This document shows positions 22,730-63,723 of a DNA stretch of 64,000 bases, one piece after another. Numbering within the stretch: the first letter of the stretch is position 1; each line of letters begins with the position of its first letter. A program made the position numbers and the translations under genes. The stretch spans positions 231,489 through 295,488 of the forward strand of contig CAZMHV010000002.1 in the NCBI GenBank assembly GCA_964566225.1, read 5' to 3'. Origin of the DNA: an uncultured Gammaproteobacteria bacterium (GTDB lineage: Bacteria > Patescibacteriota > Patescibacteriia > Magasanikbacterales > UBA922). The notes below the pieces were generated by a model, which was not told the DNA's origin, ran no database searches, and saw nothing but the letters and a program-made list of their open reading frames with translations.

Positions 22730-22836
22730 TGAACGTTCACCTGCAAAAGGGTGATCGAGTTTTTTGTATTACAACGCCCGACACATGGTCGTGGCCCCAA
22801 AAGTCTCCAGGGAGGCCTGGAGCAGTATGGTATTTC

Positions 22837-23532: not shown

Positions 23533-23610
23533 TAGCGTCAAACCCGAGGTGGCTTCCGGGTACAGAAGCCACACCAAGGAGTTTCTCCGAGTCGCACTGC
23601 GGCCCGGAGA

Positions 23611-23650
23611 ACAGAGAAAAAAACAAAATATATTTTATTTTTTTCTCTGT
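23611..23650. terminator. AT-rich hairpin terminator (ACAGAGA7...T7CTCTGT)
   Basis: acagagaaaaaaa-caaaatatatttta-tttttttctctgt. Follows the 22837..23532 CDS. Confidence 0.45.
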
Positions 23651-23704
23651 CTGTAAAATGTGAAAAAATTTGCTTCTATGGCTTAATTTTTCCACATTTA
23701 CAAT

Positions 23705-23733
23705 TTGACAGGAATATTTTTTCGTGCTATTAT
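23705..23733 (+). promoter_or_regulatory. Sigma70-like promoter TTGACA-17-(TGC)TATTAT
   Basis: TTGACAggaatattttttcgtgcTATTATtgc. It shares TATTATTGC with the promoter at 19828. Confidence 0.4.
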
Positions 23734-23794
23734 TGCACATCCCATTTTTTTTGGGACATGTTTCAATATTCAAGTTCGTTACAACTGGATTTCT

Positions 23795-23852
23795 CTGCAC
23801 CAAAAATATTTTTTTTCATACTAACATTGAAAAAGAAATATTTTTGGTGCAG
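23795..23852 (+). promoter_or_regulatory. Perfect 17-bp inverted repeat (CTGCACCAAAAATATTT / AAATATTTTTGGTGCAG, 24-nt loop) in the leader
   Basis: Read directly from the sequence. About 60 nt downstream of the promoter at 23705 and about 265 nt upstream of the ATG at 24119. Confidence 0.5.
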
Positions 23853-24118
23853 GTGAAATCCTGTCACACTCAAGTGGGACTGTGTCCCGAATCGCTGCCA
23901 GTGGACTCGCGAGGAACCCTGGTGGCATACCTGCTCGAACCGGTCAACACGAGTAGTGTGTATCATTTTTTGAAGGCAATGGTGCCTTCTGTATTCACGC
24001 ACTCACATCCCACAGAAAGGGGGAGTGAAATGGTGCAAGAGTACAAAAGAAAAATGAGAAACATTGCTTGGTGGAGACTGGCAAGGGCTCAACGTCATGA
24101 CGTGGAGAAATCCTACCG

Positions 24119-26122: not shown

Positions 26123-26282
26123 GGATTCACCACCCTCAACCAGTGAGAAGTTCCTGGATCTGAACTTCTGGTGAATGTCACGACCAGCGACTGTGACAAA
26201 GGAGGAACCCCGGGGGAGTGCAACAGCACACCCCCGGTCAGTTCGTTTGATTCTCTTTCTCAAAAGGGAACAAAACGATAAC

Positions 26283-26319
26283 AAAAAAGCCTTTGATTTT
26301 TTCAGAGGCTTTTTTGTTT
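26283..26319. terminator. Bidirectional intrinsic terminator at the right GC/AT boundary
   Basis: AAAAAAGCCTttgattttttcagAGGCTTTTTTGTTT. Serves the minus-strand gene ending at 26336 and the plus-strand island gene ending at 26122. Confidence 0.55.
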
Positions 26320-37696: not shown

Positions 37697-39745
37697 ATGA
37701 AATCTTTTTTTGAAAAAACAATTCGTTTTCTCATTCCACTCACTTTTGTGGTTCCATTCTTTTTTGGACCATTTGTGTGGAAATCATTTATTTTTCCATT
37801 CATTGTCCCCAAAATAGTTTTGTTTCGAAGTTTGACAATGCTCATGGTAGCGGCCTATGTTTGTTTGCTCGGTATTAACTACCAAAAATATAAGTTGAAA
37901 TTTACTCCTCTGACACTGGCATTGCTCGGATTTTATCTAAGTTTTGCGCTTTCGACGTTTGTAGGGGTAGACTGGTACAAAAGTTTTTGGGACAACCATG
38001 AGCGAATGCTTGGTTTGTTTACGATGACCCACTATGTAGTATATTATATTGTGGTTACAAGCATTGGCTTGACCAAAGAAGAATGGAAAACAAATTTTCG
38101 TTGGATTCTATGGCTTGGAAGTATTGTCATGATCTTGGGCATCGTTCAAAAATTCAGTCCAGACTTCATGCTCAACCAAGGCAATACACGTGTCTCATCA
38201 ACACTCGGAAATCCAATTTATTTTGCAGGATACGGACTTTTTTTGGGTTGTTTGGGTTTGTATTTATATGTTTGTGAAAAAGACCGTACACTTAAAATCA
38301 CCTCACTTTTGTTGGGTTTTCTTGGACTTTCCGCTACTTTTTTGAGTGGGACTCGGGGAACACTGCTTGGAATTGCGGTGGGGGTTGCTGTATCACTGCT
38401 GTTGATTGCCTTTCATCGATCTCTGGCTCAAAAAACAAAATATGTTGTTTTGAGTGTGTTTCTCGGTGCGGTCATTGTGGTGAGTTGTTTGTTTTTGCTT
38501 CGTCACAACACCATCGTAAATCAGATTCCTGCTTTGGGAAAATTATTGAACTCTGCGAGTGAAATTCACGAAAAAAGTCCACGTCTCATGTCATGGGGAA
38601 TTGCGATTGAATCGTGGAAAGAAAAACCAATCTTTGGTTGGGGGCCAAACAATTATTACTATGCATTTAATAAGTACTATCGACCGGAATATCTCAACTT
38701 TGGTTGGGGTGAAACATGGTTTGATAACGCTCATAATGTTGTATTAAATACTCTTGCGGTACAGGGACTTTTGGGGTTGGTGAGTTATTTATCACTTTTT
38801 GCTGTGGGAGTTGTTTACTTGATTAAAAAAGAAAAAGAAGGCACCGTGGATATAAGAGTAATGATATTTGGTGTTGGATTTTTGGTAGCGCATTTTGTCC
38901 ATAATGTTTTTGTGTTTGAAGATCCAACATCACTCTTGTATTTTTATTTCTTTTTAGCCTACATCAATGTTCAACTCTTTGAAACGGTTGCTGAAAAAAA
39001 TAAAGTAAGTGATACAAAATTTTCTGTTTACAAGGCTTCTGCTGTATTTTTTATAATCTTTTTGTTCATTCACCGAACGAATATTGACGTGGCTAAAGCC
39101 AATGTACGAAGTTTTGAGGCGATTCAATCTGTATACACTGGTGTTGATACTTTGAATAAATATAATATTGCAGTGAATACTCCTACTCCACATATTGACG
39201 ATGTGCGTGCCGATATAGCAAGGGCGGTGTATGCGGCACTACCAAACTATGCGCAGGCCAACCGTTTGGAAGGATTTCGACCAATATTTAATGCTTCGTA
39301 TGAGGATTTGAAAAAAGATCATGCTTTGCATCCACTCGATATTCGTATTCATTTGCAAGAGGCGCAGCTCGCACAGGCAGGTGCACAGTATTACCAACGA
39401 CCTGAATTGTATCAAGAAGCTGAAGTTGTGCTCGACGAGGCTCTCACTCACTCACCTAAACGTCAGCAGGTGCAGTACACTTTGGCGATGCTTTCATTTC
39501 AATTACAAAAACCACAAAAAGCCGAAGCATTGCTCGTGGATGCTATCAAAAATACACCAAAATTTGCAGAAGGATGGTGGAGACTGGCCTATGTGTATAT
39601 TTATAGTGGTAGACCTGATCAAGCACAAAAGATTATGCAGCAGGCGCAGCAGTCAGGAGTGGTGTTTGAACCATCACGACTTCAAAATATTGAGACGCTT
39701 ATTCGTCAAGCAACAGTGAGTAGTACAGCTCCAAAGTCGAAGTAA
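37697..39745 (+). CDS. O-antigen ligase/polymerase (Wzy_C) family membrane protein fused to C-terminal TPR repeats (paralogue of 34771..36969)
   Basis: Motifs GTRGTLLGIAVGVAVSLLLIAF and WGPNNYYYAFNKYY. C-terminal TPR-like region (EGWWRLAYVYIYSGRPDQAQKIMQQAQQ). Confidence 0.6.
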   Translation: MKSFFEKTIRFLIPLTFVVPFFFGPFVWKSFIFPFIVPKIVLFRSLTMLMVAAYVCLLGINYQKYKLKFTPLTLALLGFYLSFALSTFVGVDWYKSFWDNHERMLGLFTMTHYVVYYIVVTSIGLTKEEWKTNFRWILWLGSIVMILGIVQKFSPDFMLNQGNTRVSSTLGNPIYFAGYGLFLGCLGLYLYVCEKDRTLKITSLLLGFLGLSATFLSGTRGTLLGIAVGVAVSLLLIAFHRSLAQKTKYVVLSVFLGAVIVVSCLFLLRHNTIVNQIPALGKLLNSASEIHEKSPRLMSWGIAIESWKEKPIFGWGPNNYYYAFNKYYRPEYLNFGWGETWFDNAHNVVLNTLAVQGLLGLVSYLSLFAVGVVYLIKKEKEGTVDIRVMIFGVGFLVAHFVHNVFVFEDPTSLLYFYFFLAYINVQLFETVAEKNKVSDTKFSVYKASAVFFIIFLFIHRTNIDVAKANVRSFEAIQSVYTGVDTLNKYNIAVNTPTPHIDDVRADIARAVYAALPNYAQANRLEGFRPIFNASYEDLKKDHALHPLDIRIHLQEAQLAQAGAQYYQRPELYQEAEVVLDEALTHSPKRQQVQYTLAMLSFQLQKPQKAEALLVDAIKNTPKFAEGWWRLAYVYIYSGRPDQAQKIMQQAQQSGVVFEPSRLQNIETLIRQATVSSTAPKSK

Positions 39746-53962: not shown

Positions 53963-54068
53963 TCTAAAAAATACGCTAGGTAAAGGTAAAAATTTACTAT
54001 TTGAACTTTCTTGACACCTTTTGACACTTTATGGTACTATTGATCCACTGATCTTGGTACCATTTTTT

Positions 54069-54317
54069 ATGCTAGAAGAAATTAAAGAAAATGCAGTCTA
54101 TACCACCACCGAAGCCCAGTCTCTCCTCAAAGTGAGTGAGAGTACTATGAAGCGTCTTCTCAAAAAAGGCATTCTTCGGGCCAATAAGGTAGGGGGTCAG
54201 TACCGTATTTTAGGCAAAGAACTACTCCGCTTGATTTCTCCAGAACTTGAGCAAAAATCTATCAAGGCATATTTGAAAGTCAAAAAACGAGCTGTAGATG
54301 TAATTAACAAATGGTAA
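54069..54317 (+). CDS. Helix-turn-helix (HTH_17/excisionase-family) DNA-binding protein
   Basis: AVYTTTEAQSLLKVSESTMKRLLKKGILRANKVGGQYRI. A second copy of this regulator type (see 28177..28509). Confidence 0.5.
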   Translation: MLEEIKENAVYTTTEAQSLLKVSESTMKRLLKKGILRANKVGGQYRILGKELLRLISPELEQKSIKAYLKVKKRAVDVINKW

Positions 54318-54318
54318 T

Positions 54319-55449
54319 ATGAAAATACTCTACATTGCTAACTCACGCATGCCTACCGAAAAAGCCCATGGGCTTCAGATTGTAAAAACTATGGAAGCAT
54401 TTTTGCTGCAGGGGGCTGAGGTAGAATTGGTGTTACCCAGACGAAGAAATCATATAGAGCAAAGTATTCAAGAATTTTATCAGGTACAAGGTGTGCCTAC
54501 AATTCATTGGATAGGAAATTATTTTGGATGGCTTGAAACTCTCTGGCATCAAGGATATTTTTCTCTCCAAAGAATGGGTTTTGGGGTGATGGCGTTTTGG
54601 TATGCTCTTTGCAAGAGGGGGTATATCATCTATTCCCGTGAAATTACGCTTTGTTTTTTCTTGTCTCTCTGTGGAAAGAAGGTTGTATTTGAGGACCATG
54701 AACCAAAAAAAAGTTTTGGTTTTGTGTATGATTTTTTTCTGCGCTGTATTCCAAAGAAAGTAATTGTAGCTGAGCTGTTGCAAGAAAGATATGCTGCTGC
54801 AGGAGTAAAAGAAAAGAGTTTTGTGCTCGCTCCCAATGGAGTTGACTTGAAAGAATTTCAAAATGGCACTCAGAGAGAAATCTGGCAAAATGTTTTTTCT
54901 TTGCAACGAAGTGAAAAAATTGTTTTGTATGTAGGGCACTTTTATCCGTGGAAAGGTGTGTATACACTGCTCGACGCTGCTGCACACATTGATGGGATAG
55001 TGGTTCTCGTTGGTGGTATTGAACAAGATAGAAAAAAAGTAGAACAGTATATTGCTCAAAAAAATATTCGTAATGTGGTGGTGCATCCATTTTTGCCACA
55101 CCATGAAGTGGTTCCCTTTATTCAGTCAGCCGATGTGGTAGTATTACCCAATACTAGTCAAGAAGAACGTTCTCAAAAATATACTACTCCTATTAAACTT
55201 TTTGAATACTTGGCAAGTGGCGTGCCACTGGTTGCCAGTCGTTTGCCCAGTTTTCAAAAATATTTGCACCATGAAAAAAATTGTTTGTTGGTGAATCCAG
55301 ATGAACCCCAGGCTTTGGCAAATGTAGTCAATATTTTATTACATGATGCAACCGTAGGTCGTATTTTGGTCTCACAAGCCAAACAAGATGTGCAGCAGTG
55401 GACCTGGAATTCCAGAGCACAAAAAATTCTTTCCTTTCTTCAAACATAG
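54319..55449 (+). CDS. Glycosyltransferase family 4
   Basis: MKILYIANSRMPTEKAHGLQIV. C-terminal QEERSQKYTTPIKLFEYLASGVPLVASRLPSF. Confidence 0.7.
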   Translation: MKILYIANSRMPTEKAHGLQIVKTMEAFLLQGAEVELVLPRRRNHIEQSIQEFYQVQGVPTIHWIGNYFGWLETLWHQGYFSLQRMGFGVMAFWYALCKRGYIIYSREITLCFFLSLCGKKVVFEDHEPKKSFGFVYDFFLRCIPKKVIVAELLQERYAAAGVKEKSFVLAPNGVDLKEFQNGTQREIWQNVFSLQRSEKIVLYVGHFYPWKGVYTLLDAAAHIDGIVVLVGGIEQDRKKVEQYIAQKNIRNVVVHPFLPHHEVVPFIQSADVVVLPNTSQEERSQKYTTPIKLFEYLASGVPLVASRLPSFQKYLHHEKNCLLVNPDEPQALANVVNILLHDATVGRILVSQAKQDVQQWTWNSRAQKILSFLQT

Positions 55450-55451
55450 CT

Positions 55452-56816
55452 ATGTCTTCAAATCGAAAAAAAATTCTGGAAGGCTTATTTCTCTACTCAT
55501 TTAGTCGCACTGGCGTGAAAGTTTTTGCATTTCTTTCATTTTTGTTTATTACCAAAGGGTTATCACTGTCAGAGTATGGTCAGCTGCAACTTTTTTTTGC
55601 GGTGCTTGCTCCAGCCAGTGCTTTGATCTCACTGAATCTTGATAAATTGGTGGTAGCTGATGCTGCGGCACTTCGCGGACAGAATTCCACTCACAAAGCT
55701 CAACGACTTTTTAAACAATATTTTTCTTTAAGTAGCATACTTTTCGTGCTCGTACTCGGTCTAGGTTTTGCTGCCCACAATTTTCTTTCGAACTATTTCA
55801 AAGTTGATTTGTCACTCTATTTTTGGCCTGTGGCCGCTTTGATTATTGGACAACTGGTAATGAATTTTGCCTCAATGGTTTTTACAGCGTTTGAACATTT
55901 TCGTGGTGTAGCCATTCTCCAAATTGGTGAAGCTGTTGCACGCTTACTATTTGTTCTTTTGTTCTTTTTTACTGATCAGATCACGGTTCTGACTATTTTG
56001 TGGGCATATGTTGGTTCTAAGTTTGTAGTACCTGTTCTTACTTTTCCTTGGGTGCTGCGTCTCCTGAAAGCTCCTGTCGGAACCGAGAGTAAAGAAAATT
56101 TGCTTGGTGCTATTTTAAAGCGTCATGGTAAATGGGAAGTAAGTAATGGTATGGTTGATACCCTGGTAGGCAATCTCTGGCCTTGGATACTTAACTTTTT
56201 TGGTGGCACAGTGGCTGTGGGGGTGTATGGCTTTGCAGAAAAAATCATTAGTTTTATCAATGCTGGGTTGCCAGTTGACGCTGTTCTCTTTCCTATTATT
56301 AGTCGAAGTGTTAAAGAAAAAAAAGAAGTGGCCAAGCTTATTATTATCAAAGCCAAAAAATATACTTTTTTCTTGCTCTTGTTCACTTTTATTTTAGGTT
56401 CACTTTTGGTAAAGCCTGTGATAGAATTTTTTGTGCCTCAATACGTGGGCGCGGTTCCTTATATTATTGTACTCATGTTTAACCTGTGTCTGGGTGTATT
56501 TGCTATTGGTCAGTCAGCCGTGCTCTATGCATACCAACAACAAAAAGTTATGTTTGGCGCGCGTGGTATTATTTTAACGGCTCGACTGGTGCTTCAAATC
56601 GTGTTGGTTTCCCTTTTTGGTATTTGGGGATTAGTATTTTCTGTGATCTGTATGGACTTTTTAACTTCAGCTATACGTGAGTATATTTTACGTAAACGAC
56701 TCAACTTTTCACTCTGGGAATGGGAGCCTTTCTTTACCTTTGACCAGTATGATAGAATAGTGCTGCAATCTTTGCGCGAAAAAGCATTAAAAATTTTCCG
56801 TCGATCTCAATCTTAA
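55452..56816 (+). CDS. Wzx-like polysaccharide flippase (MOP/oligosaccharide flippase family)
   Basis: Twelve or more TM helices and a size of about 455 aa. Placed inside the glycan cluster. The ORF track starts at 55398, overlapping the upstream stop. Confidence 0.55.
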   Translation: MSSNRKKILEGLFLYSFSRTGVKVFAFLSFLFITKGLSLSEYGQLQLFFAVLAPASALISLNLDKLVVADAAALRGQNSTHKAQRLFKQYFSLSSILFVLVLGLGFAAHNFLSNYFKVDLSLYFWPVAALIIGQLVMNFASMVFTAFEHFRGVAILQIGEAVARLLFVLLFFFTDQITVLTILWAYVGSKFVVPVLTFPWVLRLLKAPVGTESKENLLGAILKRHGKWEVSNGMVDTLVGNLWPWILNFFGGTVAVGVYGFAEKIISFINAGLPVDAVLFPIISRSVKEKKEVAKLIIIKAKKYTFFLLLFTFILGSLLVKPVIEFFVPQYVGAVPYIIVLMFNLCLGVFAIGQSAVLYAYQQQKVMFGARGIILTARLVLQIVLVSLFGIWGLVFSVICMDFLTSAIREYILRKRLNFSLWEWEPFFTFDQYDRIVLQSLREKALKIFRRSQS

Positions 56817-56833
56817 TTTTTATTGGTACCTGT

Positions 56834-57745
56834 ATGAAGTTTCCCTTCAAAAAACAGATTATCAGTCTGCAAGACAAATGGAGATTTTTTTGGACTTCAG
56901 CCAAAATACGCCTGGCCTACCGTATTGGGCAACGTCGATTTCCTCAATTAAGAAAAAAAGGCATACCCCATGCAATTCATTTGGGGGTAGTTGGTATTAG
57001 TGGAAATGAAAAATCGGGTATTATTTTGCCACCAAATTATTTGCAAATTGTTGAAGAATTTTACCAAGATGCTAAACAGCGTTTTGCACAGACAAAAAAC
57101 TGTCGTCTTCGTTCTGCGAGTGATGATGTAAATAAAAAGATTGCACTCGGTAACCTTCCAGAAAAGCTTGACGATGTGGAAGAAATACAGAAAGGGCTTA
57201 TCAGTACTGTTCGATTGGCTTACACTCTTGATTTAAAAAATCTGCAGGAAATTTGTAATATTTTACTCCCTCAAGTTGAAGAAAATATTTATCATTCACC
57301 AATTATTGTAGAAAAAGTCACTGTATATCGTCATCTCACTTCTGCATTGCCAGAATATGCCTCTATATTGTGGCATGCTGACAACCATTTTGAAGAAGTG
57401 ACCAAGATTATGATTTACCTCAGTGATGTTGGTGAAAAACAAGCTCCTTTTGAATATCTTCGACACAAAGAAACAGGTGGTGTTATCCACATTCAGCCGG
57501 CTATGCCGCAAAAATATCCGAGTGGAAGAATTCCAAAAGAGGTAATTGATAATGCCTTGCAAAATGGTTATGAGTCTTATAAAGTACTGGGACCAAAAGG
57601 AACAACCATGATATTTGACGATAAAATTATTCACAAGGGGAACTATGCCAAAGAGGGGTATAGAGATGTGCTCGTATTGCAGCTTCGTCCGGTAGCCAAG
57701 GCTTACCCTCGTTATCTTGATCCAGCTTGGACCACTTCATTTTAA
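56834..57745 (+). CDS. Hypothetical protein, possibly PhyH-like Fe(II)/2-oxoglutarate oxygenase
   Basis: WHADNH (H-x-D) and distal IIHKGNY could form a 2-His-1-carboxylate facial triad. This is a weak inference. Confidence 0.3.
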   Translation: MKFPFKKQIISLQDKWRFFWTSAKIRLAYRIGQRRFPQLRKKGIPHAIHLGVVGISGNEKSGIILPPNYLQIVEEFYQDAKQRFAQTKNCRLRSASDDVNKKIALGNLPEKLDDVEEIQKGLISTVRLAYTLDLKNLQEICNILLPQVEENIYHSPIIVEKVTVYRHLTSALPEYASILWHADNHFEEVTKIMIYLSDVGEKQAPFEYLRHKETGGVIHIQPAMPQKYPSGRIPKEVIDNALQNGYESYKVLGPKGTTMIFDDKIIHKGNYAKEGYRDVLVLQLRPVAKAYPRYLDPAWTTSF

Positions 57746-57762: not shown

Positions 57763-58515
57763 ATGGAAAAGATTCCTTCTGTGCGAGAACTTCGTGGTTT
57801 GTGCCAATCAACCGCACCAAATCCAGCACGTGAAAGTTTTACTGGAAAGTTTTCTCGTAAATTTTCTATTTTGTTTACCTGGCTTTTGCTCCACACCAAT
57901 ATTACCCCAAATCAGATTACAGTTTTGAGTGTGCTCGTGTTTTTTGCGGGCACTACCATGTTTTTGAAAAATGACTTTTGGTGGAATATTGGTGGATCAT
58001 TGGTTATCTTTTTTTCTATTATTCTGGATGGGTGTGATGGTGAAGTGGCTCGCTTTCGTAAACGTCCGAGTTTGGTTGGTACCAATTATGTAGAACCAGT
58101 AAGTCATGATATCCAATATGGATTTATGTTTCCTCTCTTAGGATTTGGTTTGTACTACTTTCAAGGCTTTTCATTTTTGTATGTGCTTCTTGGAGTTATT
58201 GCTGGGATGACCAAAATGCAGTATCGATTTTTGGAAATTCGTTTTTGGCTCCTGCAAAATGCCAAAGAAACTATTACCGATGCAAAGATTGAACAAATGA
58301 AAGAAAACTATAAAAAACAACCCGCCTCTGTACGTTTATTGTACTGGGTAAATAAAAATTTTTTTAGTTCTACTGGAGTGTTTTTACTTATCTTTATTTG
58401 TTCTGTTATCAATCGTATTGACTTGTATTTGTGGATTTTTGCTGTTGCTTATACAAGTCTCTGGTTATTATTGTTTGCCAAACAAGTCTATAAAATTTCT
58501 ACTGAAAAAATATGA
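57763..58515 (+). CDS. CDP-alcohol phosphatidyltransferase-like membrane protein
   Basis: Six to seven TM helices. LDGCDGEVARFRKRPSLVG matches the D-x2-D-G-x2-A-R-x8-G start of the CDP-OH transferase motif. The downstream Asp spacing is atypical. Confidence 0.35.
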   Translation: MEKIPSVRELRGLCQSTAPNPARESFTGKFSRKFSILFTWLLLHTNITPNQITVLSVLVFFAGTTMFLKNDFWWNIGGSLVIFFSIILDGCDGEVARFRKRPSLVGTNYVEPVSHDIQYGFMFPLLGFGLYYFQGFSFLYVLLGVIAGMTKMQYRFLEIRFWLLQNAKETITDAKIEQMKENYKKQPASVRLLYWVNKNFFSSTGVFLLIFICSVINRIDLYLWIFAVAYTSLWLLLFAKQVYKISTEKI

Positions 58516-60425
58516 TAACAAAAATTGGTGTTATTCTTTCGGCTGGTGAAGGAGTACGACTTGATCACCCAAATAGTCCAAAGCCGCTTGTGAAAGTGGG
58601 GAGTAAACCTCTCATTCTTTGGAATATTGAACAAATGCAGCAGGCAGGCCTCGAAAAGATTTACATTGTAGTCGGACACCGAGCTGAGGAAATTCAAAAA
58701 GAGTTAGTAGGTAATCCGGCTATTACGGCATCTATTGAATATATTCATCAGACAGATGCTTCCAAAGAAGGGATGTTATCGTCGATTTTGGCCCTTCAGT
58801 CAGTCATTGATGGACCATTTTTTCTGGGCATGGCTGATTTGATTATAGGAGAAAATCCGTATGAGCTCATGCAAAAGCAAGTACCAAGTTTGAGTGAAGA
58901 TGGAATTTTAAGTTTAATTGGAACCAATTTATCGTATTCAGTTCGTTCAGGTGCATTGTCTCGAGTCAAAATGCAAGGCTCATTGATTACGACTCTTGGG
59001 CGAGAATTAGAATCATACGATGGTTTCGAAGTAGGTATTTATTACTTTGCTGATAAGTCATTGGCTTTATTAAATGAACTTGCAGAGCCATTACCTCAGC
59101 CACGACGTTTTGACGAAGTACTCCAAAAAGTAGCTTCGTATAAAAAATTGCAGGTGGTTCCTCTTGAAGAGTCTGAATGGTTTGATGTAAATACTCCGGC
59201 TATTCTTATCCGTGCGAATATTTTTTTTCGTAGTCATGATCAAAAAAATACTCAAGTAGTACGTGATAAAGGACTTCATGAACCAGTACTTTTTTCTCAA
59301 TTCAGTCGTGGTAAAGTCATGACTTCTCAAATTTGTATTGAAAAAGGAATGGTGAAAAAATTGGATGCCTTTCGTATTATTCCTGCATCATCGTTCGCTT
59401 CACCACATGTGCTGCTTACTGATTCTCTGGTTGATCCACATTATGGGGATAAAGTACTTGAGGGGTTGCGCTTTGGTGGACTTAATATAAGAAAAATTGT
59501 AGTCGAGGCAGGCGAATCAACCAAAAATATTACGGAATATTCTCGCATTGCAGATGAAATCTTTGCTGGGGGTATTGATAAACGATCATACCTTATCAGT
59601 CTTGGTGGAGGAGTCATAAATAATATTGCTGGATTTTTAGCATCTACGCTCTATCGGGGCATTGGTCTTATCCATATTCCTACATCCATGATGGCGCAGG
59701 TAGATGCAGCTATTGATTTTAAGCAAGCAGTAAACTCCTCTCATGGAAAAAATTTGTTTGGAAGTTATTATCCCGCTCGTTCAATTCTTATTGACCCAGA
59801 AGTGTTGTCTACGCTTGATCGTCGTCATGTGGTGAATGGTATTTCTGAATCTATTAAACATGCGTTGGTGCAAGATCATGAATTTTTTGACTACCTTATG
59901 AAATATCAAGGAGATTTGCATGATATCAATTTTCTTGATTATGTGGTGCGTCATTCGATTGAACTTAAAGTACCACTTTTGAATGGGAGTGTTGACGACG
60001 ATTATAATGAAATGCTGCCGCAGTATGGTCACAGTATTGGTCATGCTATTGAACATCTGTCTGCATACGAATTTTTGCACGGTGAATCTATTGCTATTGG
60101 TATGTGTATTAGTGCGGAGATTGCTCACATTTTGGGAATTTGTAATAAAGATGTGGTGGATGCTCACTATGCGGTGTTTCAAAAATATGAATTGCCAACC
60201 GTGGTACCTACGGAAATGTCAGTTGAAGATATTGTGGCGACCATCCGTTATGACAAGCACTATATGCTTGGAAATCCAGAAATGGCACTACCACAAGAAA
60301 TTGGTATTCCGTGGCAAGAAAAAGGTGTGTATGGAATTCCAATTGATTATGAAATTTTGGAACGTGGTATTAAAAAAAATAAAGTGCGAAATGGAAACGG
60401 GCAAAATGAAACAACACTTATATAA
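58512..60425 (+). CDS. Bifunctional fusion: N-terminal sugar/alcohol-phosphate nucleotidyltransferase + C-terminal dehydroquinate-synthase-like sugar-phosphate cyclase (NAD/metal-dependent)
   Basis: N-terminus IGVILSAGEGVRLDHPNSPKPLVKVGSKPLILWNIEQ (MobA/IspD-like NTP transferase). C-terminus LISLGGGVINNIAGFLASTLYRGIGLIHIPTSMMAQVDAAIDFK...HGKNLFGSYYPARSILIDPEVLSTL...SIKHALVQDHEFF...HGESIAIGM aligns motif-by-motif with AroB/DHQS (GGGVxxDxxGFxA, PTTLLAQVD, GKNxxGxFxQP, HGExVAIGM). Confidence 0.7.
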   Translation: MITKIGVILSAGEGVRLDHPNSPKPLVKVGSKPLILWNIEQMQQAGLEKIYIVVGHRAEEIQKELVGNPAITASIEYIHQTDASKEGMLSSILALQSVIDGPFFLGMADLIIGENPYELMQKQVPSLSEDGILSLIGTNLSYSVRSGALSRVKMQGSLITTLGRELESYDGFEVGIYYFADKSLALLNELAEPLPQPRRFDEVLQKVASYKKLQVVPLEESEWFDVNTPAILIRANIFFRSHDQKNTQVVRDKGLHEPVLFSQFSRGKVMTSQICIEKGMVKKLDAFRIIPASSFASPHVLLTDSLVDPHYGDKVLEGLRFGGLNIRKIVVEAGESTKNITEYSRIADEIFAGGIDKRSYLISLGGGVINNIAGFLASTLYRGIGLIHIPTSMMAQVDAAIDFKQAVNSSHGKNLFGSYYPARSILIDPEVLSTLDRRHVVNGISESIKHALVQDHEFFDYLMKYQGDLHDINFLDYVVRHSIELKVPLLNGSVDDDYNEMLPQYGHSIGHAIEHLSAYEFLHGESIAIGMCISAEIAHILGICNKDVVDAHYAVFQKYELPTVVPTEMSVEDIVATIRYDKHYMLGNPEMALPQEIGIPWQEKGVYGIPIDYEILERGIKKNKVRNGNGQNETTLI

Positions 60426-60428
60426 TAT

Positions 60429-61175
60429 ATGAAGAAAAAAATTCTTGTTACTGGCGCGAGCCGTGGCATTGGCAAAGCAATTACCGAAGTGCTCTTAAAA
60501 AAAGGGTATGCCGTGCATATGGTGGCAAAAGATGAGCCTGAGTTGAAACAAGCCTGTGAATATATGTCTACTTTTGGTGATTGCTCTTTTACTGCGGTTG
60601 ATTTGGGAAGTTGTGAAGCTATTGCGCAATTTGTTGGTGATTGGGAAGAATTGTTGTATGGCATTGTAAACAATGCGGGTATTTGTAAAACTGAACGACT
60701 TGATGAAGAAAAAAATGTGTGGGACGAAGTGTTGGCCGTCAACTTGAATGGGCCTTATTTACTTACCAAAGGACTAATGAGTAGGCTTGAAAATAATGGT
60801 CGCATTGTAAATATCTCTTCACAGCTTGGCAAAGAAGGGCGTGCCGGATACAGTGCCTACTGTGCTTCCAAGTTTGGCTTGATTGGACTCACAAAATGTT
60901 GGGCCAAGGAGCTTGGTGACAAAGGAATTACTGTGAATGCCGTGTGCCCAGGTTGGGTAGCGACTGATATGGCCATGAAAGATATGGAACGTTTGGCACA
61001 GGAGAAAGGAATTTCAATCGAAGAGTATTATAAAGAAATTTGTGCGCCACTTGAACTCAAGCGATTTACCACACCTGAAGAAGTCGCATACCTGGTGGCC
61101 TTTTTGGTGTCAGAAGAGGCAAGTGGAATAACGGGCAGAGACATGCTTATGAATACCATTTGGAATCAGGAATAA
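60429..61175 (+). CDS. Short-chain dehydrogenase/reductase (SDR)
   Basis: ILVTGASRGIGKAI, NAGI and YSAYCASKFGLIGLTK (YxxxK). Confidence 0.8.
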   Translation: MKKKILVTGASRGIGKAITEVLLKKGYAVHMVAKDEPELKQACEYMSTFGDCSFTAVDLGSCEAIAQFVGDWEELLYGIVNNAGICKTERLDEEKNVWDEVLAVNLNGPYLLTKGLMSRLENNGRIVNISSQLGKEGRAGYSAYCASKFGLIGLTKCWAKELGDKGITVNAVCPGWVATDMAMKDMERLAQEKGISIEEYYKEICAPLELKRFTTPEEVAYLVAFLVSEEASGITGRDMLMNTIWNQE

Positions 61176-61176
61176 T

Positions 61177-62106
61177 ATGGAATCTGTTATTTTACAATAT
61201 ATTACACAGTCATATAATAAGGAAATTATTTCTTGCACTCATATAAAAACAGGTGTCATAAATTCCAATTATTTGTGCCAGACAGCCAGTGGAGAAGAAT
61301 ATATTTTTAAACTCTATAATTTTAAAAATGCAGACGAACTTCAGTTTGAAATTGATATTCTTCTTCACTTGGAACAAAAAAATTTTCCATGTCCACGACT
61401 CATTCAAAAAAATGATGAAAAGCTTGTTGGAGAAGTAGAAAATAAACCTTGTGTGCTCTATAAATATATTCCAGGAGAATTACAAAGTACTGTTGACGAA
61501 ACATTTTTGTTTGAAGTAGGAAAAGTATTGGGGCAGTTGCATGTGAGTATGCAAGATTTTACTCCACAGGTGCAAAAAAGTAGTTGGGATCCACACGATA
61601 TTGCTGAACTGGTAGAAAAAAGAGGCAACGAATTGGTGGAACGCAATTTCCTAGAGGCGGCAGAGTTACTTTCATTTGTGCGTGTAGAGCTCCAAAAGTA
61701 TTCTTTTCCTGATCTCCCAAAAGGCATCACACATCAAGATGTAAAGCTCGAAAATATTGTGGTACAGAATGGAAATATCCAAGCCCTTATTGACTTTGAT
61801 AATAGTTATTATGGCGCACTTATTCACGATCTTACTACGAGTATTATTTGGATGTGTGTAAAGAATGAAAAAATTTCGCCAGTATGGGTAGCCGCACTCC
61901 TCAAAGGCTATGAAAGTATACGTCCGCTCACTCTCACAGAAAAAGAAGTACTGCATCAAGCCATTGCTTGGAGACTGGTACGAGAGATTTTTGTTGGGCC
62001 ATTGGTGACATTGAATTATCCAGATATTGTAAAACAACGTTCAGATTCATTTAAAAAAATATATTTACATTTTATTCATTCAGAATCAAAAACCTATGGC
62101 ATCTAA
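61177..62106 (+). CDS. Small-molecule kinase of the APH / choline-ethanolamine kinase (LicA-like) fold
   Basis: Brenner motif HQDVKLENIVV and IDFDNSYYG (DFD). Confidence 0.65.
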   Translation: MESVILQYITQSYNKEIISCTHIKTGVINSNYLCQTASGEEYIFKLYNFKNADELQFEIDILLHLEQKNFPCPRLIQKNDEKLVGEVENKPCVLYKYIPGELQSTVDETFLFEVGKVLGQLHVSMQDFTPQVQKSSWDPHDIAELVEKRGNELVERNFLEAAELLSFVRVELQKYSFPDLPKGITHQDVKLENIVVQNGNIQALIDFDNSYYGALIHDLTTSIIWMCVKNEKISPVWVAALLKGYESIRPLTLTEKEVLHQAIAWRLVREIFVGPLVTLNYPDIVKQRSDSFKKIYLHFIHSESKTYGI

Positions 62107-62818
62107 AACAGGAATGATCCTCGCTGCAGGTATGGGTAAACGACTCGGAGCAATTTCACAAGAAACTCCAAAACCACTTTTGCCTGTGGCAGGTAAGACA
62201 CTCATTGAATACATGATTGACTTTGTCAAAGGTCTTGGCTGTGACCGTGTTATTGTGGTAGGTGGTTACATGTATGAAAAAGTAGAAGCCGTAGTAAAAA
62301 AGTATGATTCAAGTGTAGAAATGGTTAACAATCCACGTTTTGATTTACAAAATCTCGTGAGTTTCAAAGCTGGTCTTGATATGGTAGAGAGTGGAGATTT
62401 ATTTGTGTGTAATGCAGACTATATTTTCCGTCAAGGAACCATAGATGCGGTCAAAGCCAGTATGGAAAAAATGGGAGTGTACTGCAGTTATGATCTCAGT
62501 GGCAATGCGGATGATGTGATGAAAGTACAAACTGATGAAGACAGAAACCTTATTGAAATGTCCAAGCAACTCACTGAATTTAATTCTATTTATACTGGCA
62601 TGTTCTTCTTTCCTGAGGATACCGTTGCTTCGGTAAAATCAACTACCGAAGAACTTTTGGAAACTGTTGACCAAGTAAAAGCGACTGTAGAATACCTTTT
62701 TCCAGCCCTGATGCAAAAAGGACACAACATTCAAGTGGCAGATTGCGGCAAGGCTGATTGGTTTGAGATTGACAATGAAGAAGAGTGGATGATTGCTCGC
62801 AAAGCCCTTGAACAATAA
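62096..62818 (+). CDS. Nucleotidyltransferase (LicC/CTP:phospho-alcohol cytidylyltransferase-like)
   Basis: GMILAAGMGKRLG...KPLLPVAGKTLIEYMIDFV. 240 aa. Overlaps the kinase gene by 11 nt, suggesting translational coupling. Confidence 0.65.
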   Translation: MASKTGMILAAGMGKRLGAISQETPKPLLPVAGKTLIEYMIDFVKGLGCDRVIVVGGYMYEKVEAVVKKYDSSVEMVNNPRFDLQNLVSFKAGLDMVESGDLFVCNADYIFRQGTIDAVKASMEKMGVYCSYDLSGNADDVMKVQTDEDRNLIEMSKQLTEFNSIYTGMFFFPEDTVASVKSTTEELLETVDQVKATVEYLFPALMQKGHNIQVADCGKADWFEIDNEEEWMIARKALEQ

Positions 62819-62838
62819 ACATTTTTATTCTTACTTCT

Positions 62839-63723
62839 ATGGAACATATTTCGTGCAACCTCTGTGGTGAAACACAAGATACGCAGCTGTACCAAACCAA
62901 GGACTACCGAGTCGTCCTGTGTTTGAATTGTTCACTGTCTTACCTCAATCCACGCATGACGGCACAGGAATACGAACAACACTATCGTAGTCAGTATCAG
63001 ATTGCTCGGCACCAGATTTCCGAAAAAGAAGCGGCTATTGAAAGACTTCTCAAGAAAAAAGCCTACGAACAAAAAAAACAGCGGGTTTCTTTTTTTGAAG
63101 GTGTGGTCACTCCAGATTCAAAAGTGCTCGAAGTCGGTGCTGGCTGGGGAACTTTTTTGAAAGTGTTTCAAGATACCTTTCACTGCTCGGTAGAAGGAAT
63201 TGAAATTTCTGCCTTGGCAGCAGAGGTGGCTCGTGAATACTATGGGCTTTCCATTGTAGAAAAGCCGTTTGAAGTGTATGTCCAAGAAAATAGTGATCAA
63301 AAACAGTTTGACCTTATTTTAATTCATCATGTATTGGAACATTTTCTTGATCCGAGTAAAGTGTTAAAAAATTTGCACGGACTTTTGTCACCAAACGGAT
63401 CAGTCTATATTGCGGTTCCCAATGTAGCCAATCCCGATGAACTCCTGCCACAATTTTTTCGTATTGAACATACCTATTATTTTACACCCAGGACGCTTAT
63501 CAAAATGATAGAAAAAAATGGATTTGAAGTTGCAAAATTGGTAGTAGGGGAGAATGATATAAAAATTATTATCAAAAAAGGAAACAAAATATATGATGGT
63601 GCTGAAATAGAGATAACCGCTGCACAAATTCAGCGAACTTTACGCTTACGAAAGTATACTGAAGCTGTTAAAAATATTATTCGACCATTATATTATAAGA
63701 TTAAAAATACCATACATCATTAA
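62839..63723 (+). CDS. Class I SAM-dependent methyltransferase with N-terminal Cys4 zinc ribbon
   Basis: CNLCGE...CLNCSL. VLEVGAGWGTFLKVF. LILIHHVLEHFLDPSKVLKNLHGLLSPNGSVYIAVPN. Confidence 0.65.
   Translation: MEHISCNLCGETQDTQLYQTKDYRVVLCLNCSLSYLNPRMTAQEYEQHYRSQYQIARHQISEKEAAIERLLKKKAYEQKKQRVSFFEGVVTPDSKVLEVGAGWGTFLKVFQDTFHCSVEGIEISALAAEVAREYYGLSIVEKPFEVYVQENSDQKQFDLILIHHVLEHFLDPSKVLKNLHGLLSPNGSVYIAVPNVANPDELLPQFFRIEHTYYFTPRTLIKMIEKNGFEVAKLVVGENDIKIIIKKGNKIYDGAEIEITAAQIQRTLRLRKYTEAVKNIIRPLYYKIKNTIHH

What the first reader, a model, noticed from the sequence alone, without database searches (positions are those of the whole stretch)
57763..63723. Candidate novel NDP-cyclitol / alcohol-phosphate decoration pathway built around a nucleotidyltransferase-DHQS-like cyclase fusion
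The consecutive genes are a CDP-alcohol-phosphatidyltransferase-like membrane protein, a fusion of an NTP-transferase with a dehydroquinate-synthase-family sugar-phosphate cyclase (motif-level match to AroB/EEVS-type enzymes), an SDR, an APH/LicA-fold kinase, a LicC-like cytidylyltransferase and a Zn-ribbon SAM methyltransferase. The kinase plus cytidylyltransferase pair is the established logic for CDP-choline-type activation (LicA/LicC). DHQS-like cyclases make carbocyclic cyclitols from sugar phosphates. Together they suggest synthesis of a possibly methylated cyclitol or keto-sugar that is phosphorylated, CDP-activated and transferred onto a glycan or lipid. I am not aware of the NTase-DHQS fusion being characterised.
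Basis: partly seen in the sequence, partly recalled or inferred. Interest (0 to 1): 0.7.

Follow-up and report, generated by a model that had tools for sequence, protein, structure and literature searches.

The report
Activated-cyclitol pathway with fused cyclase
A tightly packed operon in a candidate-phyla-radiation bacterium most likely makes a ring-shaped sugar alcohol (a cyclitol), phosphorylates it, couples it to a nucleotide and attaches the cyclitol-phosphate to a membrane or surface-glycan acceptor, using an uncharacterised fused enzyme that recurs in dozens of genomes from two unrelated bacterial phyla.

Summary
Six co-directional, abutting or overlapping ORFs (57763-63723) encode a CDP-alcohol-phosphotransferase-fold membrane protein, a 637-aa nucleotidyltransferase/DHQS-family cyclase fusion, an SDR, an APH-fold kinase, a second LicC/IPCT-like nucleotidyltransferase and a Zn-ribbon methyltransferase.

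The cyclase is not G1PDH-like, and the fusion is not an artefact: about 75 protein clusters carry it, in Patescibacteria and Myxococcota.

The cyclase belongs to a separate clade, sister to DOIS-type enzymes. It has an invariant Gln where DHQS has Asn, DOIS Glu and an S7P cyclase Asp, and it lacks the DHQS carboxylate-binding Arg.

Comparative genomics links the steps:
- The reductase is an SDR, an MDR-ADH or a Gfo/Idh/MocA enzyme.
- The kinase is APH in Patescibacteria and PfkB in Myxococcota.
- Fusions tie NTase-cyclase to the SDR, and the kinase to the membrane transferase.

The most likely function is a Kennedy/DIP-like "CDP-cyclitol" route that uses a phosphate-eliminating cyclase instead of inositol-phosphate synthase.

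The substrate, the nucleotide, the acceptor and the reason for two nucleotidyltransferases remain unknown. No description was found in the searchable literature. I rate it a new variant of a known kind, interest about 0.66.

The parts
57763..58515 (+). Six-helix-type membrane protein of the CDP-alcohol phosphotransferase fold. Proposed to transfer cyclitol-phosphate from a CDP-cyclitol to an alcohol acceptor. It belongs to a divergent, Patescibacteria-restricted subfamily.
   Evidence: Pfam PF01066, 30.8 bits. The best NCBIfam hits are archaetidylinositol-P synthase, IPCT/DIPPS and PIP synthase, all far below their cutoffs. AF2 model pLDDT 90; the top 19 Foldseek PDB hits are all CDP-alcohol phosphotransferases (AF2299 E 8.8e-6, TM 0.63). 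Invariant motif D89xxD92GExAR97-x8-G106-xxYxE111PxSH115D116. 126 clusters, all about 250 aa. Always found next to the fusion.
58512..59240 (+). N-terminal nucleotidyltransferase domain of the fusion (residues ~1-243). Proposed cyclitol-phosphate nucleotidylyl (probably cytidylyl) transferase.
   Evidence: Pfam NTP_transferase, residues 6-238. The best solved relatives are CTP:inositol-1-phosphate cytidylyltransferases 2xme and 4mnd, matched over the full length. G12, G14, R16, K24, D109, W223 and D225 are conserved across 24 diverse family members.
59296..60425 (+). C-terminal DHQS-superfamily sugar-phosphate cyclase domain of the fusion (residues ~262-637). Proposed NAD+/metal-dependent, phosphate-eliminating carbocyclisation of a sugar phosphate to a keto-cyclitol (inosose).
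   Evidence: DHQ_synthase + DHQS_C. TIGR01357 scores 262 bits, below the 305 cutoff. Foldseek TM about 0.9 to DHQS, 0.87 to DOIS and 0.85 to ValA. The metal, phosphate and NAD residues are conserved. Q504 is invariant at the DHQS-N268 / BtrC-E243 position, and E500 stands in place of the DHQS Arg. The domain falls in a separate clade sister to DOIS-annotated enzymes.
60429..61175 (+). Classical SDR. Proposed ketoreductase that converts the keto-cyclitol into the cyclitol.
   Evidence: adh_short, 161 bits. TGxxxGxG, NNAG and YxxxK are intact. It is fused to the C-terminus of the NTase-cyclase in P0009, P0010 and P0012. It follows the fusion directly in Myxococcota and in part of the Patescibacteria loci. 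Where absent, it is replaced by an MDR Zn-ADH or a Gfo/Idh/MocA enzyme. It is 57-62% identical to the SDRs next to standalone cyclases.
61177..62106 (+). APH/ChoK-fold small-molecule kinase. Proposed cyclitol kinase that restores the phosphate lost in cyclisation.
   Evidence: Pfam APH, 114 bits. The best solved relative is type II homoserine kinase 2ppq. HQDVKLEN and DFD are intact. It is conserved next to the fusion in Patescibacteria and functionally replaced by a PfkB kinase in 37 Myxococcota loci. In L070 it is fused to the membrane transferase.
62096..62818 (+). Second, standalone nucleotidyltransferase of the LicC/IPCT type (NT2). It is a core member of the Patescibacteria version, but its precise substrate is unresolved.
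   Evidence: NTP_transf_3, 69.5 bits. The best solved relatives are LicC 1jyk and 4jd0, followed by PntC 6pd1 and IPCT 2xme. It is only 23% identical to the fused NTase. It is present in 14 of 20 Patescibacteria loci, usually directly after the kinase, and absent from Myxococcota loci.
62839..63723 (+). SAM-dependent methyltransferase with an N-terminal Zn ribbon. A variable tailoring enzyme (O-methylation of the cyclitol or the glycan), not part of the conserved core.
   Evidence: Methyltransf_23, 85 bits. CxxC at residues 6 and 28, and SAM motif I at 96. There are 1-4 paralogues in 11 of 20 Patescibacteria loci. In L004 the position is taken by a carbamoyltransferase, and Myxococcota loci have none.
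54021..57745 (+). Upstream genes of the same co-directional operon, given as context. They are an HTH_17-like small protein (54021-54317), a GT1 glycosyltransferase (54319-55449), a 472-aa polytopic membrane protein (55398-56816) and a 303-aa protein of unknown family (56834-57745).
   Evidence: GT1 by Pfam; the other two have no family hit. The order HTH-GT1-(membrane protein)-(303 aa)-CDP-OH transferase recurs in L004, L005, L006, L011, L034 and L041.

Best explanation
The block encodes a de novo route to a nucleotide-activated cyclitol phosphate and its transfer as a phosphodiester.

Proposed steps:
1. The DHQS-superfamily domain of the fusion cyclises a sugar phosphate into a keto-cyclitol and releases phosphate. 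The substrate is most likely a hexose 6-phosphate, given the DOIS-like features.
2. The SDR reduces the ketone to give an inositol-like (possibly deoxy-inositol) cyclitol.
3. The APH-fold kinase re-phosphorylates it.
4. An IPCT/LicC-type nucleotidyltransferase converts cyclitol-phosphate plus NTP (probably CTP) to NDP-cyclitol. The fused domain is the candidate present in both phyla.
5. In Patescibacteria, the divergent CDP-alcohol phosphotransferase moves cyclitol-phosphate onto a membrane-associated alcohol, either a lipid or a lipid-linked surface glycan. Methyltransferases provide optional tailoring.

In effect this is a Kennedy/DIP-type 'CDP-inositol' pathway in which inositol-phosphate synthase is replaced by a phosphate-eliminating cyclase, a reductase and a kinase.

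Shown: the domain identities, the intact catalytic residues, and the strict genomic coupling of the parts. Inferred: the order of steps, the substrate, the nucleotide and the acceptor. The need for a second nucleotidyltransferase in the Patescibacteria version is not explained.
For: Domain identities.

The cyclase keeps the full catalytic apparatus. Window residues and their DHQS equivalents are:
- GGG365-367.
- R382, K404, N414, H511 and K582: phosphate pocket.
- D398 and K449.
- E446, H507 and H523: metal ligands.
It lacks the DAHP carboxylate Arg. E. coli AroB reads LRALLNLGH, while the window protein reads NEMLPQYGH.

It shares N371, KQ404-405 and YYP with DOIS and is sister to the DOIS-annotated enzymes in an NJ tree.

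Coupling of the steps:
- Fusion-SDR-PfkB in 37 Myxococcota loci.
- CDP-OH transferase-fusion-reductase-APH-NT2 in 21 Patescibacteria loci.
- The reductase is an SDR in 7 loci and an MDR-ADH in 8, never both, and a Gfo/Idh/MocA enzyme in L026 and L091.
- The kinase is APH or PfkB, two unrelated folds in the same position.
- Fusions: NTase-cyclase-SDR (P0009, P0010, P0012) and APH-CDP-OH transferase (L070).
- 3 of 3 membrane-transferase homologues chosen independently sit beside the fusion.
- An inositol-monophosphatase-family gene abuts the fusion in L092 and L009.

Both NTases have phospho-alcohol cytidylyltransferases (IPCT, LicC, PntC) as their nearest solved relatives, not sugar-1-phosphate enzymes. 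The membrane protein's nearest models and structures all handle inositol phosphate.

The logic has precedent in the IPCT/DIPPS route and in the proposed MIPS-NTP transferase-CDP-alcohol transferase cluster of B. vulgatus and Prevotella (PMC9246714).
Against: - There is no biochemical datum for any member.
- All family-model scores are far below equivalog cutoffs, so specificities are guesses.
- The second half of the CDP-alcohol transferase signature (Gx3Dx3D) is replaced by Gx4Ex3HD, so the chemistry could differ.
- Two active-looking NTases but only one kinase in the Patescibacteria version is not accounted for by a linear pathway.
- Myxococcota loci and the standalone-cyclase loci have no adjacent transferase. 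The fate of the product there is unknown and could be glycosyl-type rather than phosphodiester transfer.
- The Gln at the DOIS catalytic Glu position may signal a different substrate or a different reaction course.
Confidence: 0.55

Rival explanations
1. The pathway makes an NDP-carbasugar (pseudo-sugar donor), as in validamycin and acarbose biosynthesis (GDP-valienol). The carbasugar would then be built into the surface polysaccharide, or into a small glycoside, by glycosyl- or pseudoglycosyltransferases. Under this reading the membrane protein has another role.
For: The order cyclase, tailoring, kinase, NTase is exactly that of the C7N-aminocyclitol pathways (PMC9200736, listed). The block is embedded among many GT1, GT2 and GT4 genes. 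Myxococcota loci and standalone-cyclase loci have no CDP-alcohol transferase, and the standalone ones are flanked by GT4 genes.
Against: The fingerprint positions differ from an S7P cyclase: Q versus D at 504, H versus P at 511, K versus M at 486. Both NTases are nearest to IPCT, LicC and PntC rather than to GlgC- or RmlA-type sugar-1-phosphate enzymes. The CDP-alcohol transferase co-occurs strictly with the fusion in Patescibacteria and is fused to the kinase in L070.
Confidence: 0.15
2. The product is a soluble di-cyclitol phosphate or related phosphodiester osmolyte, analogous to di-myo-inositol phosphate. CDP-cyclitol would condense with cyclitol-phosphate, followed by dephosphorylation.
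For: The best family and structure matches of the NTases and the membrane protein are IPCT and IPCT-DIPPS. An IMPase-family gene lies next to the fusion in L092 and L009. Many Myxococcota carriers (Bradymonadales, Lujinxingia, Persicimonas) come from saline habitats according to their record titles.
Against: In Patescibacteria the block is always inside a surface-glycan operon with a Wzx/Wzy-like protein, GTs and methyltransferases. Myxococcota loci lack any DIPPS-like gene nearby. The IMPase gene is present in only one sub-lineage.
Confidence: 0.12
3. The kinase, NT2 and the membrane transferase form a LicA/LicC/choline-phosphotransferase-type module for an unrelated amino-alcohol (choline, ethanolamine or a homoserine-like compound). 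The fusion plus reductase would make something else, and the two modules are merely neighbours.
For: NT2's best solved relative is LicC. The kinase resembles type II homoserine kinase, and the L005 orthologue also hits Choline_kinase. This reading would explain why there are two NTases.
Against: It leaves the fused NTase without a kinase in Patescibacteria, although a kinase always accompanies it in Myxococcota. The membrane-transferase family was never seen without the fusion. No LicB or LicD-type genes were found. The order of the kinase and NT2 around the fusion is shuffled in L013, L026, L034, L070 and L091, yet they always stay within the block.
Confidence: 0.1
4. The fusion is an ordinary shikimate-pathway 3-dehydroquinate synthase, or a glycerol-1-phosphate dehydrogenase, that happens to be fused to a sugar nucleotidyltransferase.
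For: The highest sequence and fold scores are to DHQS entries, and several sources label homologues '3-dehydroquinate synthase'.
Against: The protein scores below the aroB cutoff, 262 versus 305. The DHQS Arg and Asn are replaced by E/A/G and by an invariant Q. No other aro genes were seen in the surveyed parts of the window or in the related loci. G1PDH scores 25.7 bits against a cutoff of 413.
Confidence: 0.03

Closest known systems
IPCT/DIPPS route to di-myo-inositol phosphate, and the proposed Kennedy-like CDP-inositol route to inositol lipids in Bacteroides vulgatus and Prevotella (MIPS + NTP transferase + CDP-alcohol phosphatidyltransferase; PMC9246714)
   Same: An IPCT/LicC-type nucleotidyltransferase is paired with a CDP-alcohol phosphotransferase-fold membrane enzyme. 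The best solved relatives are IPCT (2xme) and IPCT-DIPPS/AF2299. An IMPase-family gene is present in some loci.
   Different: The cyclitol does not come from myo-inositol-1-phosphate synthase. It comes from a phosphate-eliminating DHQS-superfamily cyclase, so a reductase and a kinase are needed. The NTase is fused to the cyclase rather than to the transferase. The transferase has an altered second half of the signature motif. There are two NTases.
2-deoxy-scyllo-inosose synthase (BtrC/NeoC type; PDB 2d2x, 2gru)
   Same: Same fold (TM 0.87-0.88). Shares KQAVN, GKNLxGxYYP and Asn at the GGGxxxN position. It is the nearest clade in the tree.
   Different: Only 25-29% identity. The DOIS Glu243 position is an invariant Gln. 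No DOI aminotransferase is conserved nearby. The context is envelope glycan, not aminoglycoside biosynthesis. The domain is fused to an NTase.
C7-cyclitol pathways of validamycin and acarbose (EEVS, cyclitol kinases, ValB/AcbR nucleotidyltransferase, pseudoglycosyltransferase; PMC9200736)
   Same: The overall logic is the same: sugar-phosphate cyclase, then redox tailoring, a kinase and an NDP-cyclitol donor.
   Different: The cyclase fingerprint is not that of an S7P cyclase. The NTases belong to the phospho-alcohol cytidylyltransferase group. The transfer enzyme is a CDP-alcohol phosphotransferase. The carriers are Patescibacteria and Myxococcota, in what look like primary envelope loci rather than antibiotic clusters.
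LicA/LicC (+ CDP-choline:DAG phosphotransferase) CDP-choline pathway of bacteria
   Same: An APH/ChoK-fold kinase is followed by a LicC-like cytidylyltransferase and a PF01066 enzyme. LicC (1jyk) is the best solved relative of NT2.
   Different: No choline transporter or LicD. The module is invariably tied to a cyclase and a reductase that make the alcohol de novo.
3-dehydroquinate synthase AroB
   Same: Same Pfam domains and the highest raw sequence and fold scores.
   Different: Scores below the equivalog cutoff. Lacks the substrate carboxylate-binding Arg and the Asn of the RxxxN-x-GH motif. No shikimate-pathway context.

Membership tests
Sugar phosphate cyclase (DHQS) superfamily | DHQ_synthase + DHQS_C domains and the DHQS fold | tested here: met
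   Pfam 116 and 97 bits. Foldseek TM(target) 0.85-0.91 to DHQS, DOIS and ValA.
Sugar phosphate cyclase (DHQS) superfamily | NAD-binding GGG loop, three metal ligands (Glu, His, His) and the phosphate-pocket Arg, Lys, Asn and His | tested here: met
   G365-367, E446, H507, H523, R382, K404, N414 and H511 are invariant in 24 diverse members and align with the same residues of E. coli AroB.
3-dehydroquinate synthase (AroB, TIGR01357) | Score at or above the curated equivalog cutoff | tested here: not met
   262 bits against a cutoff of 305.
3-dehydroquinate synthase (AroB, TIGR01357) | Arg and Asn of the R-x-x-L-N-x-G-H motif (DAHP carboxylate and phosphate contacts; A. nidulans R264 and N268, numbering from memory) | tested here: not met
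   E. coli AroB reads L-R-A-L-L-N-L-G-H. The window protein reads N-E-M-L-P-Q-Y-G-H. Across the family the Arg position is E, A or G and the Asn position is an invariant Q.
2-deoxy-scyllo-inosose synthase | Glu at BtrC position 243 in the E-Y-G-H motif | tested here: not met
   Chain residue 243 of 2d2x aligns with Q504. Two DOIS-annotated enzymes have E there, and all family members have Q.
2-deoxy-scyllo-inosose synthase | Other DOIS-type positions (GGGxxxN, K-Q after the catalytic Asp loop, YYP) | tested here: met
   N371, K404-Q405 and Y419-Y420-P are shared with BtrC (match line) and with the DOIS-annotated sequences. AroB and the S7P cyclase have D and K-T instead.
Sedoheptulose-7-phosphate cyclases (EEVS/EVS/DDGS) | Fingerprint residues, taken from one PGAP-annotated S7P cyclase that sits next to a ROK kinase: Asp at the 504 position, Pro at the 511 position, non-Lys at 486 and at 582-583 | tested here: not met
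   The window protein has Q, H, K and K-H. The R. rhizogenes S7P cyclase has D, P, M and A-L. The published 14-residue fingerprint (Kean 2014) could not be read.
Glycerol-1-phosphate dehydrogenase / AraM | Significant match to G1PDH models | tested here: not met
   NF002022 scores 25.7 bits against a cutoff of 413, with no passing stretch.
CDP-alcohol phosphotransferase (PF01066) | Pfam gathering score and the transmembrane fold of AF2299, DIPPS and PIPS | tested here: met
   30.8 bits against a cutoff of 22. Model pLDDT 90. The top 19 PDB matches are all family members, the best at E 8.8e-6 and TM 0.63-0.67.
CDP-alcohol phosphotransferase (PF01066) | Signature D-x2-D-G-x2-A-R...G-x3-D-x3-D | tested here: inconclusive
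   The first half is invariant (D89, D92, G93, A96, R97, then x8 and G106). The second half reads G-x2-Y-x-E111-P-x-S-H115-D116 in all 31 members, so acidic residues are present but the spacing and identity are changed.
IPCT/LicC-type phospho-alcohol cytidylyltransferases | GxGxR...K signature and the GT-A-like NTase fold, with nearest relatives in this group | tested here: met
   GEGVR and GMGKR followed by PKPL. Best PDB hits are 2xme and 4mnd for the fused domain, and 1jyk, 4jd0, 6pd1 and 2xme for NT2.
IPCT/LicC-type phospho-alcohol cytidylyltransferases | CTP specificity and the identity of the phospho-alcohol | not testable with these tools
   The NF041135 equivalog scores about 70 bits against a cutoff of 580. 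Specificity needs an enzyme assay.
APH/choline-kinase-fold kinases | Brenner motif HxDxxxxN and the DFD metal-binding motif | tested here: met
   HQDVKLEN at residue 186 and DFD at 206. Pfam APH, 114 bits.
Lic (phosphocholine decoration) system | LicB choline permease and LicD phosphocholine transferase alongside LicA and LicC | tested here: not met
   No such families appear among the window ORFs from 34 to 64 kb or in the related loci.
Classical SDR | TGxxxGxG, NNAG and the catalytic Ser...YxxxK | tested here: met
   The motifs are at residues 8, 81 and 144. adh_short, 161 bits.

The most novel reading that the evidence does not exclude
The invariant-Gln cyclases are a new functional class of sugar-phosphate cyclase that makes a cyclitol not yet known from bacteria. 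Patescibacteria and Myxococcota would use it, as a CDP-activated phosphodiester donor, to build a previously unseen cyclitol-phosphate head group or cap on their envelope lipids or surface glycans. The standalone relatives in Burkholderiaceae, Bradyrhizobiaceae, Sulfurovum and some protists would feed related carbocyclic units into glycans.
Probability: 0.45. Interest if true: 0.8.

Novelty: new variant of a known kind. Interest (0 to 1): 0.66.

Why it matters
Patescibacteria have tiny genomes and almost no characterised envelope biochemistry. A conserved five-gene module inside their main surface-glycan operon points to a specific molecule that could be searched for: a phosphodiester-linked, possibly methylated cyclitol on the cell surface that mediates their epibiotic lifestyle.

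For cyclitol enzymology, the finding adds a well-populated sugar-phosphate cyclase clade. It has its own diagnostic residue and is fused to its pathway's nucleotidyltransferase. It occurs in cultured, tractable Myxococcota (Lujinxingia litoralis and L. vulgaris), so the prediction can be tested directly.

The finding also illustrates an inositol-phosphate-synthase-independent way to feed a Kennedy/DIP-type CDP-alcohol pathway.

Tried and rejected
- **Published fingerprint.** I tried to read the 14-residue SPC fingerprint (Kean 2014; Wu 2007), but the papers are not held. I built a fingerprint instead from E. coli AroB and PGAP-annotated plasmid genes. Those DOIS and S7P labels are computational.
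- **Misreading.** I first read the HMMER printout as if it showed target sequences. It shows only match and posterior lines. I corrected this, and residue claims now rest and on the match line.
- **Bradyrhizose/caryose lead.** This concerned the standalone cyclases. One loose literature query was wasted. The bradyrhizose gene-cluster paper mentions no DHQS-like cyclase. The lead is neither supported nor excluded, and it does not concern the window's fusion.
- **Possible triple NTase-NTase-cyclase fusion in L013 and L026.** Rejected: NT2 is a separate upstream ORF.
- **TagF-like gene in the window.** I looked for a TagF-like consumer of a second CDP-alcohol. None lies before the window ends, although 8 of 20 related loci have one.
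- **Literature.** Searches for the gene combination found nothing. The library excludes most subscription journals.

Full report
**1. What is in the sequence**

Intergenic distances are -4, +3, +1, -11 and +20 nt, so this is one operon. It also runs on without a break from an upstream HTH gene (54021), a GT1 gene, a polytopic membrane protein and a 303-aa unknown.

Pfam and NCBIfam give the following:

| ORF | Assignment |
|---|---|
| 57763-58515 | CDP-OH_P_transf, 30.8 bits. Nearest curated models are archaetidylinositol-P synthase, IPCT/DIPPS and PIP synthase, all far below cutoff. |
| 58512-60425 | NTP_transferase (residues 6-238) + DHQ_synthase (329-440) + DHQS_C (443-583). aroB model 262 bits (cutoff 305); G1PDH model 25.7 bits. 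|
| 60429-61175 | Classical SDR |
| 61177-62106 | APH-fold kinase |
| 62096-62818 | MobA/LicC-like NTase ("NT2") |
| 62839-63723 | Methyltransf_23 with an N-terminal CxxC...CxxC |

All catalytic motifs are intact.

The block sits at the 3' end of a large surface-glycan cluster. That cluster has two Wzy_C/TPR proteins, several GT4/GT1/GT2 enzymes, a UDP-GlcNAc 2-epimerase, AsnB and at least five methyltransferases. The genome is about 38% GC. Its closest relatives are Patescibacteria MAGs such as Magasanikiibacteriota.

**2. The fusion is real and widespread**

A search of 5.8 billion proteins returned about 75 clusters of 600-640 aa with the same architecture, at 35-77% identity. It also returned four clusters in which an SDR is fused as a third domain. 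The domain order in those is NTase 1-240, cyclase 272-627 and SDR 663-908 in P0010.

A scan of species-representative genomes returned 80 loci. The fusion occurs in two unrelated lineages. One is Patescibacteria: Magasanikiibacteriota, Falkowbacteria, Parcubacteria and MAGs labelled Saccharibacteria. The other is Myxococcota: Lujinxingia (including cultured L. litoralis and L. vulgaris), Bradymonadales, Polyangia, Kofleriaceae, Nannocystaceae and Haliangiales.

The AlphaFold model folds both domains (pLDDT 86.7). No solved structure covers both halves.

**3. What kind of cyclase it is**

Raw sequence and fold scores are highest to DHQS, but the active site says otherwise.

Across 24 diverse members, the conserved residues include:
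- the NAD loop;
- the three metal ligands (E446, H507, H523);
- the phosphate pocket (R382, K404, N414, H511, K582);
- D398, K449 and K486.

A phosphate-eliminating, NAD-dependent cyclisation is therefore expected.

I aligned the family with E. coli AroB, a PGAP-annotated S7P cyclase next to a ROK kinase, and two DOIS-annotated genes. The diagnostic positions are:

| Position | AroB | S7P cyclase | DOIS type | This family |
|---|---|---|---|---|
| 500 (DHQS Arg) | R | E | G/A | E/A/G |
| 504 (DHQS Asn; BtrC residue 243 aligns here) | N | D | E | Q, invariant, fused or not |
| 371 | D | D | N | mostly N |
| 405 | T | T | Q | Q |
| 511 | H | P | H | H |

So the family shares several positions with DOIS but has its own residue at the catalytic Glu position. 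A neighbour-joining tree places it as a separate clade sister to the DOIS-annotated sequences. Identity to every reference is only 26-29%.

I conclude that this is not AroB, not an EEVS/DDGS-type enzyme and not G1PDH. It is a distinct sugar-phosphate cyclase subfamily, most probably acting on a hexose-6-phosphate-like substrate. That last point is an inference.

**4. Comparative genomics links the steps**

tblastn synteny over 85 loci, plus clustering of neighbouring ORFs, shows two architectures.

- **Myxococcota (37 loci):** fusion - SDR - PfkB kinase, with nothing else conserved.
- **Patescibacteria (21 loci):** CDP-OH transferase - fusion - reductase - APH kinase - NT2, often followed by 1-4 Zn-ribbon methyltransferases and preceded by HTH-GT1.

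Three kinds of evidence tie the genes into one pathway.

*(a) Non-orthologous displacement*
- The reductase is an SDR in 7 Patescibacteria loci and an MDR Zn-ADH in 8, never both. It is a Gfo/Idh/MocA (inositol-dehydrogenase family) enzyme in L026 and L091.
- The kinase is APH-fold in one phylum and PfkB-fold in the other.
- From memory, both kinase folds include known cyclitol kinases: aminoglycoside/inosamine kinases, and ribokinase-family myo-inositol kinases.

*(b) Rosetta-stone fusions*
- NTase-cyclase is fused in every member.
- NTase-cyclase-SDR is fused in four clusters.
- The APH kinase is fused to the CDP-OH transferase in one continuous 558-aa ORF in L070.

*(c) Strict co-occurrence*
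- The membrane-protein family has 126 clusters, all about 250 aa, with every named member from Patescibacteria.
- I sampled it independently of the fusion three times, and each time it was found beside the fusion, the APH kinase and NT2.
- One sub-lineage adds an inositol-monophosphatase-family gene next to the fusion (L092, L009).

**5. The transferase and the NTases**

The membrane protein models confidently (pLDDT 90, pTM 0.86). Its 19 best PDB matches are all CDP-alcohol phosphotransferases: AF2299, IPCT-DIPPS and PIP synthases.

The first half of the family signature (DxxDGxxAR-x8-G) is invariant. The second half (x3-D-x3-D) is replaced in every member by xxYxE111-P-x-S-H115-D116 at the start of TM3. 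Membership by fold is met. Membership by catalytic signature is only partly met.

The fused NTase is nearest to CTP:inositol-1-phosphate cytidylyltransferases (2xme, 4mnd). NT2 is nearest to LicC (1jyk) and to 4jd0, followed by PntC and IPCT. Both therefore belong with enzymes that activate phospho-alcohols or phosphonates with CTP, not with sugar-1-phosphate enzymes. The two are only 23% identical, and both keep their catalytic residues.

**6. Most likely mechanism**

sugar phosphate -> (cyclase, minus Pi) -> inosose -> (SDR, MDR or Gfo reductase) -> cyclitol -> (APH or PfkB kinase) -> cyclitol phosphate -> (NTase + CTP) -> CDP-cyclitol -> (CDP-alcohol phosphotransferase) -> acceptor-O-P-cyclitol + CMP, with optional methylation.

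The need for a kinase follows directly from the chemistry. DHQS-family cyclases expel the phosphate that inositol-phosphate synthase would keep.

This is the logic of the IPCT/DIPPS route and of the Kennedy-like CDP-inositol route proposed for B. vulgatus and Prevotella (PMC9246714), but with a different source of the cyclitol.

The domain functions and the linkage between genes are shown. The order of steps, the substrate, the nucleotide and the acceptor are inferred. The operon context in Patescibacteria favours a lipid or a lipid-linked glycan as acceptor. In Myxococcota the consumer is encoded elsewhere.

**7. What does not fit**

The Patescibacteria version has two active-looking NTases but only one kinase. 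Possible explanations, all untested:
- different nucleotides for two different fates;
- a second phospho-alcohol, taken from central metabolism and used by the TagF-like transferase present in 8 of 20 loci;
- a hetero-oligomer of the two NTases.

The invariant Gln may also indicate a substrate or stereochemical outcome different from DOIS.

**8. Known or new**

Full-text searches for the gene combination, and for cyclitol, NTase and CDP-alcohol terms, found no description. A 2026 review of cyclitol biosynthesis lists DHQS, aDHQS, DOIS, EEVS, EVS, DDGS and EboD as the known cyclases and mentions no NTase-fused class (PMC12904256). The library lacks most subscription journals, so the apparent absence is not proof.

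Public annotations call these proteins "3-dehydroquinate synthase", "NTP transferase domain-containing protein" or "SDR family oxidoreductase".

Each step has a precedent, so I rate this a new variant of a known kind rather than categorically new. The cyclase subfamily, the fusions, the altered transferase signature and the envelope context in Patescibacteria are new.

Noticed in passing
window 16000-26300: A block of 52-67% GC in a genome of about 38% GC. ORFs 20331-22397 and 24119-26122 hit collagen triple-helix repeats and the Cu-binding_MopE motif. The many long overlapping ORFs on both strands are probably a by-product of the GC-rich repeats. These are large, repetitive, probably surface proteins.
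   Followed up: partly
window 11936-12333 (-), 9427-9513 (-), 9550-9623 (-): A tmRNA gene (104 bits) and two tRNA genes.
   Followed up: no
window 56834-57745 (+): A 303-aa protein with no Pfam or NCBIfam hit, directly upstream of the membrane transferase. It occupies the same position in L006 and L011. It contains WHADNH...IIHKGN, an HxD...H pattern reminiscent of Fe(II)/2-oxoglutarate oxygenases. This is untested.
   Followed up: partly
L070 8311-9987: A single 558-aa ORF that fuses an intact APH-fold kinase to the CDP-alcohol-transferase-like membrane domain, in a Magasanikbacteria MAG.
   Followed up: yes
L092 10894-11832 (-), L009 8994-9932 (-): An inositol-monophosphatase-family (PF00459) gene transcribed divergently from the fusion in one Patescibacteria sub-lineage labelled Saccharibacteria. 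It hints at a phosphorylated intermediate, as in DIP or PI synthesis.
   Followed up: partly
L050, L056, L057, L059, L061, L064, L065; proteins P0082, P0091: Standalone cyclases with the same invariant-Gln fingerprint, 45-51% identical to the window's domain, sit near an SDR that is 57-62% identical to the window's SDR. They lie inside GT4 / ABC-transporter O-antigen-like clusters of Burkholderia, Paraburkholderia, Trinickia, Rhodopseudomonas palustris BisB18 and Sulfurovum, with no kinase or NTase nearby. Homologues also exist in the protists Salpingoeca rosetta and Stygamoeba. Burkholderiaceae and Bradyrhizobiaceae make carbocyclic O-antigen sugars (caryose, bradyrhizose). A link is possible but was not supported by the one paper I could read.
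   Followed up: partly
window cyclase domain compared with other fused members (tree): The window's cyclase domain and its closest Patescibacteria relatives group with the standalone (including eukaryotic) cyclases rather than with the other fused Patescibacteria and Myxococcota members. The NTase fusion was therefore either gained twice or lost in the standalone lineage.
   Followed up: no
L014 13525-16395; L017, L020: Three to four tandem paralogues of the Zn-ribbon Methyltransf_23 gene follow NT2 in some Patescibacteria loci. This suggests multiple methylations of the product or the glycan.
   Followed up: no
window 34771-36969 and 37697-39745: Two adjacent paralogous Wzy_C (O-antigen ligase/polymerase-like) proteins, each with C-terminal TPR repeats, separated by a small TPR protein.
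   Followed up: no
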